Shown piece after piece: positions 3,629 through 34,753 of a DNA stretch of 62,880 bases (position 1 is the first letter of the stretch; every line of letters starts with the position of its first letter). The DNA lies in assembly GCA_964437835.1 (NCBI GenBank), contig CAYTJA010000187.1:1-62880 (forward strand), written 5' to 3'. The translations under genes and the position numbers were made by a program. Origin of the DNA: an uncultured Spirochaetales bacterium. GTDB taxonomy: Bacteria > Myxococcota_A > UBA9160 > SMWR01. The notes beneath the pieces were generated by a model. That model saw nothing but the letters and a program-made list of their open reading frames with translations. It made no database searches and was not told where the DNA came from.

Positions 3629-3916
3629 ATGAAGATCCGCCCGCTCCAGGATCGGATCCTGGTGAAGCGCATCGAAGAGGAGGCGAAGACCGCCGGCGGG
3701 ATCATCATCCCCGACACCGCGAAGGAGAAGCCCCAGGAGGGCAAAGTGATCGCTGTCGGCGCCGGCAAGGTGCAGGACGACGGCAAGCTCCAGCCGCTCG
3801 ACGTCAAGAAGGGCGACCGGATCCTGTTCAGCAAGTATTCGGGGAGCGAGGTCCAGATCGAGGGCGAGGAGCACCTGATCCTGCGCGAGGACGACGTCCT
3901 CGGGATCCTCGAGTAG
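3629..3916 (+). CDS. groES: Co-chaperonin GroES
   Basis: [14 protein letters not shown]...[18 protein letters not shown]; GGAG RBS. Confidence 0.98.
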
Positions 3917-3931
3917 CACTCGCAACCCTGA

Positions 3932-5647
<1,716 letters not shown>

Positions 5648-5692: not shown

Positions 5693-5727
5693 GAAGGCCC
5701 CGGAGCTCCACGGCTCCGGGGCCTTTC
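5693..5727. terminator. Probable bidirectional intrinsic terminator between groEL and the histone gene
   Basis: 13-bp perfect stem aaggccccggagc/gctccggggcctt, 6-nt loop, followed by ttc. Confidence 0.75.
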
Positions 5728-5743: not shown

Positions 5744-5959
5744 TCAGATCGCCAGCTTGGCCCGCGCCGCCTGCACGTCGGTGTCCATCACGGTCTTGCG
5801 CTTGTTCTCGACGGCCGAGGCACTTGCCTCCTGCGCGAGCCGCGCGATGTAGTTCTCGGCCGCCTGCACCGCGAGATCGAGCGCTCCGCCGGAGACGCGC
5901 AGATCGCCGCCGTGCTTGGTCAGCAGTCGCTTCACTACCGCGTTGGGAAGTTCCCCCAT
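5744..5959 (-). CDS. Histone-fold protein, archaeal HMf-like
   Basis: MGELP start, L1 RVS, long alpha2, L2 RKT with R54-x6-D61 clamp, full alpha3; AGGAG/GGAGAGG RBS upstream. Confidence 0.88.
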   Translation of the reverse strand: MGELPNAVVKRLLTKHGGDLRVSGGALDLAVQAAENYIARLAQEASASAVENKRKTVMDTDVQAARAKLAI

Positions 5960-6186
5960 TCGCCTCTCCCTCTCCTAACGCCGCTCTCGATCGATGCGGC
6001 ATGTGATGTGGAGCGGACCCGGTCCGCTCGGCGCGGGAACGTAGCACCGCCGGACGCTGCCGGAAGAGCGCGCGGGACCGCGATCCCCACGCGTCGGATG
6101 TGACGGGGATCACAGCACCCAGGGTCCGCTCGGCTGGCGCCGTGCGTCCGTGGGCTCGCGCCCCGAGCGGGCGACACCGCTGCGTT

Positions 6187-6969
6187 TCATTCGATGCTGT
6201 CGAAGAAATCGGCGATCCGGCGCGCCAGCTCGGGGCCGCCGAAATCCACGGTCGCGATGTGCGCAGCATCGGGCTGCAGCAGGCGCTGCTTGCGCTGCGA
6301 CCCGACCCCCGCGAGCAGCGCGTCGAGGTCTGCGGGATCGGCGCTGCGGTCGTGCGCGCCGTGGGCCGCGAAGATCGGCGCCCGCACCAGGGCCAGCTTC
6401 TGCTTCACGAAGTGCTGCAGCCGCAGCAGCTGCCGCACGCTCGCGAGCGGCATCACGGGGTAGGTCGGGTGTCGCGCGCGCGCCGCCGGATCGCGGATGT
6501 CGGGCCCGCCCCGCTTCGGCAGGAAGGGGCGCAGGCGCTGGACTAATGCCAAGATCGGATCGGGCGGCAGGCGCAGCGCGAGCGGCGTGCCGATCGTCGC
6601 GATGCCCGCGAGCGGTTGCTCGGCCGCGAGCGCCAGCGCCAGCAGGCCGCCCATCGAGGTTCCGACCGCGAAGACGCGCAGGTGCAACGCCGCGAGCTCC
6701 GCGTGGGCAGCACGCGCCGCTTCGAGCCAGGCCTGCCAGGGAACGCGCGCGAGGTCACGAGGCTGCGTCCCGTGCCCCGGGAGCAGCGGTCCGAGCGCGC
6801 GGAAGCCGCGCAGCGCCAGCGCCTCGGCCACGGGCCTGACCTCGTAGGGCGTGGCCGTGAGGCCGTGCAAGCACAGCACCGCGCGCGATTCGCGCGCGCC
6901 CGCGGCGATGCCGTGCCCGCGGAGGTCGAAGCTGCCCGGATCGGGCGCGCCCGCGCTCTCCGCCGTCAC
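6187..6969 (-). CDS. Alpha/beta hydrolase (carboxylesterase/monoacylglycerol lipase-like)
   Basis: LCLHGLTATP, GTSMGG nucleophile elbow, HGAHD, C-terminal His; GTG overlaps the larC stop. Confidence 0.9.
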   Translation of the reverse strand: MTAESAGAPDPGSFDLRGHGIAAGARESRAVLCLHGLTATPYEVRPVAEALALRGFRALGPLLPGHGTQPRDLARVPWQAWLEAARAAHAELAALHLRVFAVGTSMGGLLALALAAEQPLAGIATIGTPLALRLPPDPILALVQRLRPFLPKRGGPDIRDPAARARHPTYPVMPLASVRQLLRLQHFVKQKLALVRAPIFAAHGAHDRSADPADLDALLAGVGSQRKQRLLQPDAAHIATVDFGGPELARRIADFFDSIE

Positions 6970-8336
6970 AGCTCGGCTGCCGCGGCGGCCTCCGCCTCCT
7001 GGATCACCAGGCGGAGCGCGATGCCGTGACGCAGCGCGGCGCGCTTGCAGTCGTCGTACTCGGCCGACGCGCTGCCCACCCCCTGCTCGTCGAAGACGAT
7101 CTTCACGCGCAGCCGCCCGTAGCGCGTCGAGACGCGCCGCTCCTCGCGCCGCAGCAGGAGTCGCTCCGCGTCGTTCACGCGCACGCCGATCGCGGTCGAG
7201 CGCGAGAACAGCAGCCGTGCGAGCGCTTGGCGCTCCGATGGCTTTGCCAGCACACGCACCAGGAAACCCGGTCGGTTCTTCTTCATCTGCAGGTGCTGGA
7301 GCGAGACATCGAGCGCCCCGGCCTCGAAGAGCGATTCCATCAGATAATCGAAATGCTCGGGCACCAGGTCGTCGAGGTGGGTCTCGAGCACGCTGATGCG
7401 GTCGCGCAGCAGCCCGCTCTCTCGGCCCAGCACAGCGCGCAGCACGTTCGGCATCGGACCCGGTCGATCGTTGCCGGCTCCGTAGCCGACGGCATCGATC
7501 GTCATCGCGGGCAACGCGCAGAACTCGTCGACGACGCAGCGCAGGATCGCAGCGCCAGTCGGCGTCACTGTCTCCCAGGGGACGTGCGCCGGCACGCTCG
7601 GAATGCCGCGCAGCAGCTCGAGCGTGGCCGGCGCGGGCAGCGGCAGCCGGCCGTGGGCGGACTCGACCGCCCCGTGACCCAGCGCCACCGGCGCCGCCGT
7701 GACGCGAGCGACGCCGAGCAGCTCGAGCGCCACCGCGGCGCCCGCGATGTCGACCATCGCGTCGACCATCCCGACCTCGTGAAAGTGCACCCGGGCGAGC
7801 GGAATGCCGTGTACCGTGGCCTCGGCGCGGGCCAGCGCGTCGAAGATCGCCTCGGCGCGCTCGCGCGCCTTGCCCGGCAGCCGCGCGCGGCGCAGCAGGC
7901 GCTGGATCTCTGCGTAGGGCCGCCCCTGCGAGTGGTCGTGCAGATGGCGCTGGCGCTGCCCACGGCCATGGCCGTGGCGGGCGTCGCGATCGTGATCGGT
8001 GTCGTGAGCGTGAGCATGAGCATGGCGCTCGGGTGCAGCGGACTCGACCAGTCGGAACGCCCCGGCGCCGACCCGCTTGCGCACGCCTCCGCTCGGGGCC
8101 AGCACTTCGACATAGCGCGCCGCGAGCGGTCCGCGCCGCACCTTCCTGACGCGCAGCTGGTGCGCGACGCCGAGCCCGCGCAGCGCAGACTCGAGCTCCC
8201 GCTGCGGCAGCCCCGCATCGATCAGCGCGCCGAGGAACATGTTGCCGGCGATTCCGGAGAAGGTATCGAGGTGCAGCAGCCCACCGGCGCTGCGCGGCGC
8301 CTTTTTGCTAGGCGCGGTTGATGAGCGTCGCGACAT
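6966..8336 (-). CDS. larC: Nickel pincer cofactor biosynthesis protein LarC
   Basis: DTFSGIAGNMFLGAL, His-rich insert, VHFHEVG, PAPATLELL, TPTGAAI, MKKNRPG, AEYDDC. Confidence 0.94.
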   Translation of the reverse strand: MSRRSSTAPSKKAPRSAGGLLHLDTFSGIAGNMFLGALIDAGLPQRELESALRGLGVAHQLRVRKVRRGPLAARYVEVLAPSGGVRKRVGAGAFRLVESAAPERHAHAHAHDTDHDRDARHGHGRGQRQRHLHDHSQGRPYAEIQRLLRRARLPGKARERAEAIFDALARAEATVHGIPLARVHFHEVGMVDAMVDIAGAAVALELLGVARVTAAPVALGHGAVESAHGRLPLPAPATLELLRGIPSVPAHVPWETVTPTGAAILRCVVDEFCALPAMTIDAVGYGAGNDRPGPMPNVLRAVLGRESGLLRDRISVLETHLDDLVPEHFDYLMESLFEAGALDVSLQHLQMKKNRPGFLVRVLAKPSERQALARLLFSRSTAIGVRVNDAERLLLRREERRVSTRYGRLRVKIVFDEQGVGSASAEYDDCKRAALRHGIALRLVIQEAEAAAAAEL

Positions 8337-34677: not shown

Positions 34678-34753
34678 GGCCCGGTAGCTCAGTTGGTAGA
34701 GCACGCGACTGAAAATCGCGGTGTCGGCAGTTCGATTCTGCCCTGGGCCACCA
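34678..34753 (+). tRNA. tRNA-Phe (GAA)
   Basis: 76 nt: GGCCCGG acceptor stem, TAGCTCAGTTGGTAGAGC D-arm, CT-GAA-AA anticodon loop, GTTCGATT T-loop, encoded CCA. Confidence 0.97.

What the first reader, a model, noticed from the sequence alone, without database searches (positions are those of the whole stretch)
5744..5959. Bacterial gene encoding an archaeal HMf-like histone, convergent with groEL
Seen: standalone 71-aa ORF with a strong RBS, MGELPNAVVKRLLTKHGGDLRVSGGALDLAVQAAENYIARLAQEASASAVENKRKTVMDTDVQAARAKLAI. Aligned by eye to HMfA/HMfB as I recall them, about one third of residues are identical with a single 1-residue gap: ELP start, R11, L1 R21-V-S, a full-length alpha2, L2 R54-K-T56, the R54-D61 clamp and a complete alpha3. 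Established: these are the DNA-binding signature of archaeal histones; the characterised Bdellovibrio histone has a shorter alpha2 and a truncated alpha3. However, HMfB four-helix-bundle residues L46/H49/L62 correspond here to S48/E51/A64. Inference: an HMf-length bacterial histone with intact DNA contacts but an altered tetramer interface, so possibly a different oligomer or wrapping mode. Codon usage looks native and no mobile genes flank it.
Basis: partly seen in the sequence, partly recalled or inferred. Interest (0 to 1): 0.88.

Follow-up and report, generated by a model that had tools for sequence, protein, structure and literature searches.

The report
Full-length histone in uncultured Myxococcota
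A small bacterial gene beside groEL encodes a full-size, archaeal-type histone that is kept across a whole uncultured Myxococcota lineage; published surveys say bacteria have only shortened histones, yet this one lacks the residues archaeal histones use to stack into nucleosome-like fibres.

Summary
Window 5744-5959 (-) is a real, selected 71-aa gene. It passes both Pfam histone models. AlphaFold2 (pLDDT 92.5) gives a canonical histone fold with a 28-residue alpha2 and an 11-residue alpha3. Its best structural match is the archaeal histone HPhA.

The gene is native to a bacterial chromosome. The order LarC-(hydrolase)-histone-groEL/ES recurs in MAGs of at least 131 Myxococcota species, and GC3 matches the neighbours. 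There are no plasmid or phage hits.

Profile-profile comparison places the family with archaeal nucleosomal histones (score 103). It does not group with the alpha2/alpha3-truncated bacterial histones (score 32 against the HBb family).

All DNA-contact residues are invariant across 196 sequences. The equivalents of the tetramerisation residues L46/H49/L62 are Ser / variable, never His / Ala or Lys.

The most likely function is a homodimeric, DNA-bending nucleoid protein that does not build HMf-type hypernucleosomes. No multimer prediction was available, so its oligomeric state is untested.

Recent papers state that nucleosomal-length histones are absent from bacteria. One family member sits uncommented in a 2023 supplementary table. 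I rate it a new variant of a known kind, of moderate to high interest.

The parts
5744..5959 (-). Histone gene: 71 codons plus stop. Predicted alpha1 is residues 6-17, L1 18-23, alpha2 24-51, L2 52-58 and alpha3 59-69.
   Evidence: Translation. Pfam PF00125 and PF00808 above their gathering scores. AlphaFold2 pLDDT 92.5 with DSSP helices. Foldseek best hit is the archaeal histone HPhA, 1ku5. 193 homologues. Synonymous changes far outnumber non-synonymous ones.
5963..5976 (-). Shine-Dalgarno run AGGAGAGGGAGAGG, 3 nt upstream of the ATG.
   Evidence: Read directly from the sequence. GGAGG-type runs sit at the same place in orthologous loci.
6036..6049 (-). Conserved upstream block CGGTGCTACGTTCC. 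It reads as a possible extended -10 (TGcTACGTT), 77-90 nt upstream of the ATG. This is an inferred own promoter.
   Evidence: This is the only block conserved among window, L001, L034 and L045 in otherwise diverged intergenic DNA. The consensus sigma-70 scan found nothing, so this is inference only.
5694..5725 (.). GC-rich hairpin (13-bp stem, 10 G-C pairs) between the convergent histone and groEL stops. Likely a shared bidirectional terminator.
   Evidence: Terminator scan: 3 sites found against 0.1 expected in shuffles, and this is the strongest.
6187..6969 (-). Alpha/beta-hydrolase gene directly upstream on the same strand, with a 227-bp gap to the histone. A conserved neighbour.
   Evidence: Pfam Hydrolase_4 and Abhydrolase_1. 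Present upstream in 41 of 88 related loci.
6966..8336 (-). LarC (nickel insertion protein) gene, a conserved upstream neighbour.
   Evidence: Pfam PF01969, E=6e-128. Found upstream on the same strand in about 80 of 88 loci.
3629..5647 (+). groES-groEL operon, convergent with the histone gene.
   Evidence: Pfam Cpn10 and Cpn60. Convergent groEL lies within the fetched flank in about 65 of 88 loci.

Best explanation
The gene encodes a chromosomal, vertically inherited nucleoid-associated histone of an uncultured Myxococcota lineage.

Shown:
- It has a full-length canonical histone fold, like archaeal HMf/HPh histones and unlike all characterised bacterial histones.
- Its DNA-contact residues are invariant across the family.
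- It is native to a bacterial chromosome.

Inferred:
- It forms a handshake homodimer.
- The basic ridge of that dimer binds about 30 bp of DNA non-specifically and bends it. The contacts would be two L1-L2 sites (R21/S23 paired with K55/T56, held by the R54-D61 clamp) and the central alpha1-alpha1 site (K10/R11).
- Dimers do not join through an HMfB-type four-helix bundle, because the bundle residues L46/H49/L62 are replaced by Ser, by a variable non-His residue, and by Ala/Lys. It would therefore act as a DNA-bending or DNA-coating architectural protein rather than building hypernucleosomes.
For: Fold: Pfam hits. The AlphaFold2 monomer has pLDDT 92.5 with helices 6-17, 24-51 and 59-69. Foldseek's top hit is HPhA (39% identity, rmsd 1.3 A), followed by the Asgard histone HHoB, NF-YB and H3.

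Class: hhalign of the family against archaeal nucleosomal histones scores 103 (E=7.7e-22, 68 columns, one 1-aa gap). Against the HBb family it scores 32 (52 columns, a 4-aa gap in alpha2). The family profile scores HPhA 31.4, HMfA 27.9, HMfB 23.6, HBb 21.5, HTkC 9.6 and HLp 5.7 bits. The window protein scores 66.5 bits on my archaeal HMM and 15.6 on my HBb HMM. In a neighbour-joining tree the truncated histones split from all full-length ones with 97.5% bootstrap.

DNA face: P5, A7, K10, R11, R21, A26, E35, A49, R54, K55, T56, M58 and D61 are invariant in 196 unique sequences. The pI is 9.3.

Interface: position 48 is S 82% / A 8% / L 6%. Position 51 is A 62% / E 14% / D 6% and never His. Position 64 is A 49% / K 25% / T 10% / R 6%. 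The literature treats L46, H49, D59 and L62 as required for tetramers and hypernucleosomes (PMC6136690). Restoring such residues made Bd0055 wrap DNA, and His49-less histones do not form stable tetramers (PMC10627809).

Native and selected: synteny across 88 loci, at least 131 species genomes including closed chromosomes, GC3, 18 synonymous against 3 non-synonymous codon changes, and no plasmid or phage hits.

Expression signals: strong Shine-Dalgarno run, terminator and a conserved upstream block.
Against: No dimer, tetramer or DNA-complex model could be computed, because the structure tool predicts single chains only. The oligomeric state therefore rests on residue criteria taken from archaeal histones.

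Several residues near the would-be interface are conserved and could pack as a different helix bundle built from small residues: S48 (82%), A49 (100%), A65 (99%), R66 (95%) and K68 (85%).

Positions 52 and 64 covary in a charge-complementary way (N-A, D-K/R, E-R). That could reflect a contact between dimers.

There are no expression, abundance or binding data for any family member.
Confidence: 0.55

Rival explanations
1. It assembles into a family-specific oligomer that wraps or bridges DNA in a mode not yet described. This could be a closed or open tetramer using the Ser/Ala-rich end of alpha2, alpha3 and the covarying 52-64 pair.
For: Alpha2 and alpha3, the elements that make histone tetramer interfaces, are retained at full length. 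S48, A49, A65, R66 and K68 are conserved. The strongest covariation in the family is the charge-complementary pair 52-64. N52-x-R54, a face-to-face (FtF) tetramer motif (PMC11390915), is present in 44% of members including the window protein.
Against: Positions 51 and 64 are among the most variable in the protein (entropy about 2 bits), which is unusual for an obligate interface. The 52-64 covariation also tracks position 27, so it partly reflects two subclades. The pair could equally be an intrachain alpha2-alpha3 salt bridge. The FtF residue R48 is absent.
Confidence: 0.22
2. It behaves like HMfB. Dimers tetramerise through a four-helix bundle and polymerise on DNA into hypernucleosome-like superhelices despite the substitutions.
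For: The nearest sequence and structure relatives are archaeal nucleosomal histones. D61, the D59 equivalent, is invariant. The L1 loop is Gly-rich (G17, G18, mostly G19), so stacking would not be blocked by bulky residues.
Against: Three of the four dimer-dimer criteria fail: there is no His49 equivalent anywhere in the family, Ser replaces L46, and Ala/Lys replaces L62. The stacking pairs K30-E61, E34-R65 and R48-D14 become Q32-Q63, N36-A67 and V50-K15 in the window protein. L1 is one residue longer. The protein scores below the NCBIfam archaea_histone cut-off, 44.6 against 50.
Confidence: 0.15
3. It is not a general chromatin protein. Instead it is a histone-fold adaptor or a sequence-specific regulator, NF-Y-like, perhaps functionally tied to the conserved LarB-LarC-hydrolase neighbours.
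For: NF-YB and NF-YC are among the top structural matches. Linkage to LarC and the hydrolase on the same strand is conserved across the clade, with gaps as short as about 70 bp in some genomes.
Against: The whole region is syntenic (groESL, LexA, queuosine genes, MreBCD), so adjacency need not mean function. There is a 227-bp gap in the window, with its own conserved promoter-like block and its own terminator. The invariant residues are exactly the non-specific DNA-backbone and minor-groove contacts of histones. No partner histone-fold gene lies in the window or in any of the 88 loci.
Confidence: 0.07
4. It is an assembly or binning artefact: an archaeal gene on a chimeric contig.
For: The closest characterised relatives are archaeal.
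Against: The same LarC-histone-groEL arrangement occurs in dozens of independent assemblies, including closed chromosomes of 4.5 and 5.8 Mb. GC3 matches the neighbours. The flanking genes are bacterial: groESL, LexA, MreBCD, PBP2 and chemotaxis genes.
Confidence: 0.01

Closest known systems
Archaeal nucleosomal histones (HMfA/HMfB of Methanothermus fervidus, HPhA of Pyrococcus horikoshii, Asgard HHoB)
   Same: Same length and helix lengths (alpha2 28 aa, alpha3 about 10-11 aa). Same ELP N-terminus. Same DNA-contact set (R10, R19, R52-K53-T54, D59 equivalents). 33% identity to HMfB and 39% to HPhA. Best sequence, profile and structure matches.
   Different: The host is a bacterium. The four-helix-bundle residues L46/H49/L62 are replaced, and no family member has the His. 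The stacking salt bridges are not conserved. L1 has a one-residue insertion. K56 is replaced by an invariant Met. The protein scores below the NCBIfam archaea_histone cut-off.
Bacterial dimer histone HBb/Bd0055 of Bdellovibrio bacteriovorus (PDB 8FVX, 8CMP)
   Same: A bacterial, standalone, tail-less, basic histone that lacks the tetramerisation His. It shares the RKTVM motif. This is probably the closest functional analogue, a dimer that bends or coats DNA.
   Different: HBb has an alpha2 that is 4-5 residues shorter and a one-turn alpha3. BLASTP finds no alignment with the window protein. hhalign scores 32 against 103 for archaeal histones. HBb relatives mostly have no precomputed Pfam hit on record (a minority hit PF00808), whereas this family hits both PF00808 and PF00125.
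Face-to-face (FtF) histones HLp (Leptospira perolatii, 9QT0) and HTkC (Thermococcus kodakarensis, 9F2C)
   Same: Histone fold. The N-x-R-x-T motif at the alpha2/L2 junction is present in part of the family. FtF histones are reported from Myxococcota.
   Different: FtF histones have a truncated alpha2 and alpha3 and form a closed tetramer using R48 and N52. Here R48 is Ser and N52 is present in only 44% of members. Profile scores are only 9.6 bits (HTkC) and 5.7 bits (HLp).
Uncharacterised full-length bacterial histones in Acidobacteriota (Vicinamibacterales) and a Lentisphaerae MAG
   Same: 71-76 aa, a gapless full-length alpha2 and alpha3, the same DNA-contact residues, and no His49 equivalent.
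   Different: Only about 45% identical. The interface positions are L-A-R. The gene context differs, being translationally coupled to an RNase H-domain gene.

Membership tests
Histone-fold superfamily (Pfam PF00808 CBFD_NFYB_HMF / PF00125 Histone) | Sequence match above the curated gathering score | tested here: met
   PF00125 45.6 bits (cut-off 26.4). PF00808 42.9 bits (cut-off 21.4).
Histone-fold superfamily (Pfam PF00808 CBFD_NFYB_HMF / PF00125 Histone) | Helix-loop-long helix-loop-helix fold | tested here: met
   AlphaFold2 pLDDT 92.5 with helices 6-17, 24-51 and 59-69. Foldseek TM 0.80-0.90 to HPhA, HHoB, NF-YB and H3.
Archaeal nucleosomal (HMf-type) histones | Full-length alpha2 (about 28 aa) and alpha3 (about 10 aa) | tested here: met
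   Alpha2 is 28 aa and alpha3 is 11 aa. The alpha2 alignment to HMfB, HMfA and HPhA is gapless.
Archaeal nucleosomal (HMf-type) histones | DNA-binding residues R10, R19, K53, T54 and the R52-D59 clamp | tested here: met
   R11, R21, K55, T56, R54 and D61 are invariant in 196 sequences. The criteria come from PMC6136690.
Archaeal nucleosomal (HMf-type) histones | Dimer-dimer (four-helix bundle) residues L46, H49, D59, L62 | tested here: not met
   The equivalents are S48 (S 82%), position 51 (A/E/D, never His), D61 (kept) and position 64 (A 49%, K 25%).
Archaeal nucleosomal (HMf-type) histones | Stacking loop without bulky residues (G16), plus stacking pairs K30-E61, E34-R65 and R48-D14 | tested here: inconclusive
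   The loop is Gly-rich (G17, G18, mostly G19) but one residue longer. The three pairs are not conserved: Q32-Q63, N36-A67 and V50-K15 in the window protein.
Archaeal nucleosomal (HMf-type) histones | Forms the (hyper)nucleosomal tetramer or superhelix on DNA (the definition used by Schwab et al. 2024) | not testable with these tools
   Only single-chain structure prediction was available. No experiment was possible.
Archaeal nucleosomal (HMf-type) histones | NCBIfam NF043032 archaea_histone curated cut-off | tested here: not met
   44.6 bits against a cut-off of 50. HMfB scores 98 and HBb scores 32.
Alpha3-truncated histones: bacterial dimer class (HBb) | Alpha3 of 3-4 residues and an alpha2 that is 4-5 residues shorter than nucleosomal histones | tested here: not met
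   Alpha3 is 11 aa and alpha2 is 28 aa. Alignment to HBb needs a 4-aa deletion in alpha2 and stops at residue 63.
Alpha3-truncated histones: bacterial dimer class (HBb) | Sequence similarity to HBb/Bd0055 | tested here: not met
   BLASTP finds no alignment. hhalign scores 32 against 103 for archaeal histones. The neighbour-joining split has 97.5% bootstrap.
Alpha3-truncated histones: face-to-face class (HLp, HTkC) | Truncated helices plus the conserved tetramer residues R48 and N52 (logo numbering) | tested here: not met
   Position 48 is Ser. N52 is present in only 44% of members. Profile scores are 9.6 and 5.7 bits.
Alpha3-truncated histones: face-to-face class (HLp, HTkC) | Closed torus-shaped homotetramer | not testable with these tools
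   No multimer prediction was available.

The most novel reading that the evidence does not exclude
A lineage of bacteria packages its chromosome with a full-size histone that oligomerises through a new interface. That interface would use the Ser/Ala-rich end of alpha2, alpha3 and the covarying residue pair 52-64, and would give a bacterial nucleosome-like or fibre-like particle distinct from archaeal hypernucleosomes, HBb bending and the HLp tetramer. Together with its Acidobacteriota relatives, it would define a third major class of bacterial histones, and it could be informative about how truncated bacterial histones and archaeal nucleosomal histones are related.
Probability: 0.2. Interest if true: 0.85.

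Novelty: new variant of a known kind. Interest (0 to 1): 0.62.

Why it matters
Current surveys state that nucleosomal-type histones occur only in archaea and eukaryotes (PMC11390915; PMC12701072). They also state that a short alpha2 is diagnostic of bacterial histones (PMC10627809). Both characterised bacterial histones, HBb and HLp, are truncated.

This family shows that a full-length HMf-size histone fold is stably and vertically maintained across at least 131 species-level genomes of a bacterial lineage. Related forms occur in Acidobacteriota.

It also offers a natural experiment on which feature determines DNA wrapping: fold length or the four-helix-bundle residues. Here the length is archaeal but the bundle residues are missing. 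The protein is small and easy to make, so dimer-versus-tetramer and bend-versus-wrap questions can be tested directly. Its placement bears on whether bacterial histones arose by transfer from archaea.

Tried and rejected
1. Membership of the alpha3-truncated classes (bacterial dimer, FtF), which the literature reports for Myxococcota and Myxococcota_A. Rejected on helix lengths and on profile scores.

2. Archaeal contamination or a chimeric contig. Rejected by synteny in many assemblies and by composition.

3. A mobile-element origin. There were no hits in the plasmid or phage collections. Only one distant (35%) viral-contig histone was found, and it has a different architecture.

4. A structured 5' UTR. 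The GC-rich palindromes downstream of the putative -10 fold no better than shuffled sequence in 4 of 5 orthologues (z = -2.0, 0.5, 0.1, -0.9, -0.3). Not a feature.

5. A sigma-70 consensus promoter. None was found. Only a conserved TGcTACGYT block is visible.

6. A second histone gene, or an HU/IHF gene, in the window. None was found. Over 63 kb this says nothing about the genome.

7. Mapping the family onto the categories of Schwab et al. 2024. This was not possible. Their source data are keyed by UniProt accession, and none of my proteins carried one. The family could sit in their 'Undefined' or 'Bacterial dimer' bins.

8. Deep phylogenetic placement. The neighbour-joining tree resolves only the split between full-length and truncated histones (97.5%). 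The family clade itself and its sister group are unsupported.

9. Multimer modelling. The structure tool predicts one chain and returns no coordinates, so linker tricks would not have been interpretable. Not attempted.

Full report
**Observation.** Window 5744-5959 on the minus strand is an ATG-initiated ORF of 71 codons.
- An AGGAGAGGGAGAGG run lies 3 nt upstream of the ATG.
- A hairpin with a 13-bp stem at 5694-5725 sits between its stop and the stop of the convergent groEL gene (4010-5647, with groES at 3629-3916).
- High-GC DNA is full of spurious ORFs, but this frame is real. It passes the gathering thresholds of Pfam Histone (45.6 bits against 26.4) and CBFD_NFYB_HMF (42.9 bits against 21.4).
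- It has 193 homologues of 70-76 aa (plus one 123-aa N-terminally extended call) at 72-97% identity.
- Against the closest orthologous gene it differs at 18 codons synonymously and at only 3 non-synonymously.

**Fold.** AlphaFold2, run on a 53-sequence family alignment, gives mean pLDDT 92.5 with helices at residues 6-17, 24-51 and 59-69.
- Alpha2 is therefore 28 residues and alpha3 is 11. These are the dimensions quoted for archaeal nucleosomal histones. The alpha3-truncated histones have an alpha2 that is 4-5 residues shorter and an alpha3 of 3-4 residues (PMC11390915; bioRxiv 10.1101/2025.06.26.661778).
- Foldseek against the PDB ranks the Pyrococcus histone HPhA first (39% identity, rmsd 1.3 A). 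The Asgard histone HHoB, NF-YB/NF-YC and H3 follow. No truncated histone appears in the top 50.

**Which class.** I verified the reference sequences of HMfB, HMfA, HPhA, HHoB, HBb, HTkC and part of HLp against PDB chains.
Against HBb it finds no alignment.
- The family profile scores HPhA 31.4, HMfA 27.9, HHoB 25.6, HMfB 23.6, HBb 21.5, HTkC 9.6 and HLp 5.7 bits. The alignments to truncated histones need a 4-residue deletion in alpha2.
- Profile-profile comparison is clearer. Family against archaeal nucleosomal histones scores 103 (E=7.7e-22, 68 columns). Family against the HBb family scores 32 (52 columns). That is no closer than archaeal histones are to HBb, which score 38.
- Reciprocally, the window protein scores 66.5 bits on an archaeal-histone HMM and 15.6 on an HBb-family HMM.
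- A neighbour-joining tree separates the truncated histones from all full-length ones with 97.5% bootstrap. Nothing deeper is resolved.
- NCBIfam's archaea_histone model matches end to end at 44.6 bits, just under its cut-off of 50. HMfB scores 98 and HBb scores 32.
- The protein is therefore a divergent, full-length, nucleosomal-type histone fold and not an alpha3 histone.

**It is bacterial and native.** The flanking genes in the window are GTP cyclohydrolase I, groES/groEL, an alpha/beta hydrolase, LarC and a methyl-accepting chemotaxis protein.
- The orthologous 60-174 kb contigs add Lon, CheA/W/Y, LexA, queuosine genes, SurA, MreBCD and PBP2.
- A scan of one genome per GTDB species found 131 genomes with a relative. 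All informative titles read Myxococcota, Myxococcales or 'Deltaproteobacteria' MAGs. A set of auto-labelled 'Spirochaetales' bins shares the same synteny. Two closed chromosomes, OZ245015.1 and OZ245002.1, are included.
- In the 88 loci I fetched, each carries exactly one histone gene.
- LarC lies upstream on the same strand in about 80 loci, with the hydrolase between it and the histone in 41. A convergent groEL lies downstream in about 65.
- groEL identity to the window across these loci ranges from 73 to 98% and histone identity from 61 to 96%. The gene has therefore been inherited vertically through a deep clade.
- GC3 of the histone gene (0.86) matches its neighbours (0.87-0.95).
- There is no hit in 72,556 plasmids or 50,697 phage genomes. 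The single hit in IMG/VR is an unrelated 209-aa viral histone.

**Conservation pattern.** The analysis covers 196 unique family sequences.
- The invariant residues are P5, A7, K10, R11, R21, A26, E35, A49, R54, K55, T56, M58 and D61.
- These include every equivalent of the HMfB DNA anchors R10 and R19, the L2 contacts K53/T54 and the R52-D59 clamp (criteria from PMC6136690).
- The equivalents of the dimer-dimer residues are not kept. L46 is Ser (82%). H49 is Ala/Glu/Asp/Ser/Gly and never His. L62 is Ala (49%), Lys (25%), Thr or Arg.
- Positions 51 and 64 are among the most variable in the protein.
- The stacking pairs K30-E61, E34-R65 and R48-D14 are also not conserved. L1 (K-H-G-G-G) carries an extra residue.
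- The nearest relatives outside the family also lack the His. They include a 72-aa family from Acidobacteriota/Vicinamibacterales. The L-H-L triad appears only among more distant, archaeal-looking sequences.

**Mechanism.** Shown: a canonical full-length histone fold, an invariant basic DNA-binding face (pI 9.3), chromosomal vertical inheritance and purifying selection.
- Inferred: a handshake homodimer. The core positions A26, A30, V31, L41, A45 and A49 are conserved. The dimer would bind and bend roughly 30 bp through two L1-L2 sites and the alpha1-alpha1 site.
- The published criteria for tetramer and hypernucleosome formation fail at three of four interface positions.
- Experiments support the importance of those positions. 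His49-less archaeal histones do not form stable tetramers, and Bd0055 gains DNA wrapping when given the archaeal interface residues (PMC10627809).
- The most likely behaviour is therefore a dimeric bending or coating nucleoid protein. Functionally it is closest to HBb; structurally it is closest to HMf. I put this at about 0.55.
- The main rival, at about 0.2, is a family-specific oligomer. Supporting it, S48, A49, A65, R66 and K68 are conserved, and the strongest covariation in the alignment is a charge-complementary pair, 52-64 (N-A, D-K/R, E-R). That signal partly tracks two subclades and could also be intrachain.
- Canonical hypernucleosomes (about 0.15), a non-chromatin role (about 0.07) and an artefact (about 0.01) follow.
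- No multimer prediction was possible with the tools, so the quaternary state is the key untested step.

**Expression signals.** The gene has a strong Shine-Dalgarno sequence that is conserved in orthologues. A probable bidirectional terminator is shared with groEL. There is a 227-bp upstream gap whose only conserved element, CGGTGCTACGYTCC (window 6036-6049), reads as an extended -10. This suggests an independent promoter, but it is inference. No sigma-70 consensus was found, and the 5' UTR palindromes are not significant.

**Comparison with the literature.** Schwab et al. 2024 divide prokaryotic histones into nucleosomal ('exclusively in archaea') and alpha3-truncated. They report FtF histones in Myxococcota and bacterial dimers in Myxococcota_A.
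- Hu et al. 2025 repeat that nucleosomal histones are exclusive to archaea and eukaryotes.
- Hocher et al. 2023 call the short alpha2 diagnostic of bacterial singlets, but for that analysis they discarded proteins longer than 65 aa.
- Their Supplementary Table 1 does list one member of this family: Deltaproteobacteria bacterium UBA6930, 70 aa, identical to my locus L047. It also lists a related 76-aa Lentisphaerae protein. Neither is commented on.
- NCBI and JGI pipelines already label members 'histone-like protein', 'NFYB/HAP3 family' or 'histone H3/H4'.
- I found no paper that describes or characterises the family.
- I could not determine how Schwab et al. binned it, because their data are keyed by UniProt accession.

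**Verdict.** The gene is not a member of either characterised bacterial histone class. It meets the structural and DNA-binding criteria of archaeal nucleosomal histones but not their oligomerisation criteria. I classify it as a new variant of a known kind: an uncharacterised, widespread, full-length bacterial histone. Interest is 0.62.

Noticed in passing
L090:5765-5983 (also L091, L092); proteins P0141, P0271-P0284: A second bacterial family of full-length, His-less histones (72 aa) in Acidobacteriota/Vicinamibacterales MAGs. The cluster has 40 members, one of them on a 5.47-Mb contig. The stop codon overlaps the start of a 221-aa RNase H-domain gene, which suggests translational coupling. 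argG is divergent upstream.
   Followed up: partly
Family alignment, residues 52 and 64 (window codons at about 5804-5806 and 5768-5770): The strongest covariation in 196 sequences is between residues 52 and 64 and is charge-complementary: N-A 72, D-K 47, A-A 20, D-R 8, E-R 4. It also tracks L/I at residue 27, which defines two subclades. It could be an alpha2-alpha3 salt bridge or a contact between dimers.
   Followed up: partly
L034 and L040 (contigs JANNKU010000012.1 and JANNKU010000107.1, MAG SOY_38_metabat_69): One MAG carries two family loci of different subtypes (N52/A64 and D52/K64). Each has its own LarC upstream and groEL downstream. This looks like a mixed bin of two related genomes rather than true paralogues.
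   Followed up: no
L047 (DKAI01000097.1, MAG UBA6930): This family member is listed verbatim in Supplementary Table 1 of Hocher et al. 2023. It was excluded from their bacterial-singlet analysis by a 65-aa length filter. A related 76-aa Lentisphaerae protein (OGV57618.1) is in the same table.
   Followed up: yes
L089:2674-3303 (IMGVR_UViG_2860317346_000001, 175 kb): A low-GC viral contig encodes a 209-aa protein with a long acidic N-terminal extension followed by a histone fold (MPNAAVKRIM...KKRKTIMDRDIE). It is 35% identical to the window protein.
   Followed up: no
Protein P0147 (metagenomic, 155 aa): A tandem doublet of two family-like histone folds in one chain, found among the closest representatives. 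Its taxon is unknown.
   Followed up: no
window 6036-6049 (-): The block CGGTGCTACGYTCC is the only conserved element in the histone upstream region across four species. It reads as an extended -10 (TGnTACGYT), preceded by a conserved CTTCCCG.
   Followed up: partly
window 6966-8336 (-) and upstream genes; L001:6755-9769: A LarB (AIRC) - LarC (nickel insertion) - alpha/beta hydrolase cluster, from nickel-pincer cofactor biosynthesis, is tightly and persistently linked upstream of the histone gene throughout the clade. No functional link is evident.
   Followed up: partly
window 34678-34753 (+): A single tRNA-Phe (GAA) gene. It is the only tRNA/tmRNA gene ARAGORN found and the only Rfam match at gathering score in the 62.9-kb window.
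   Followed up: no
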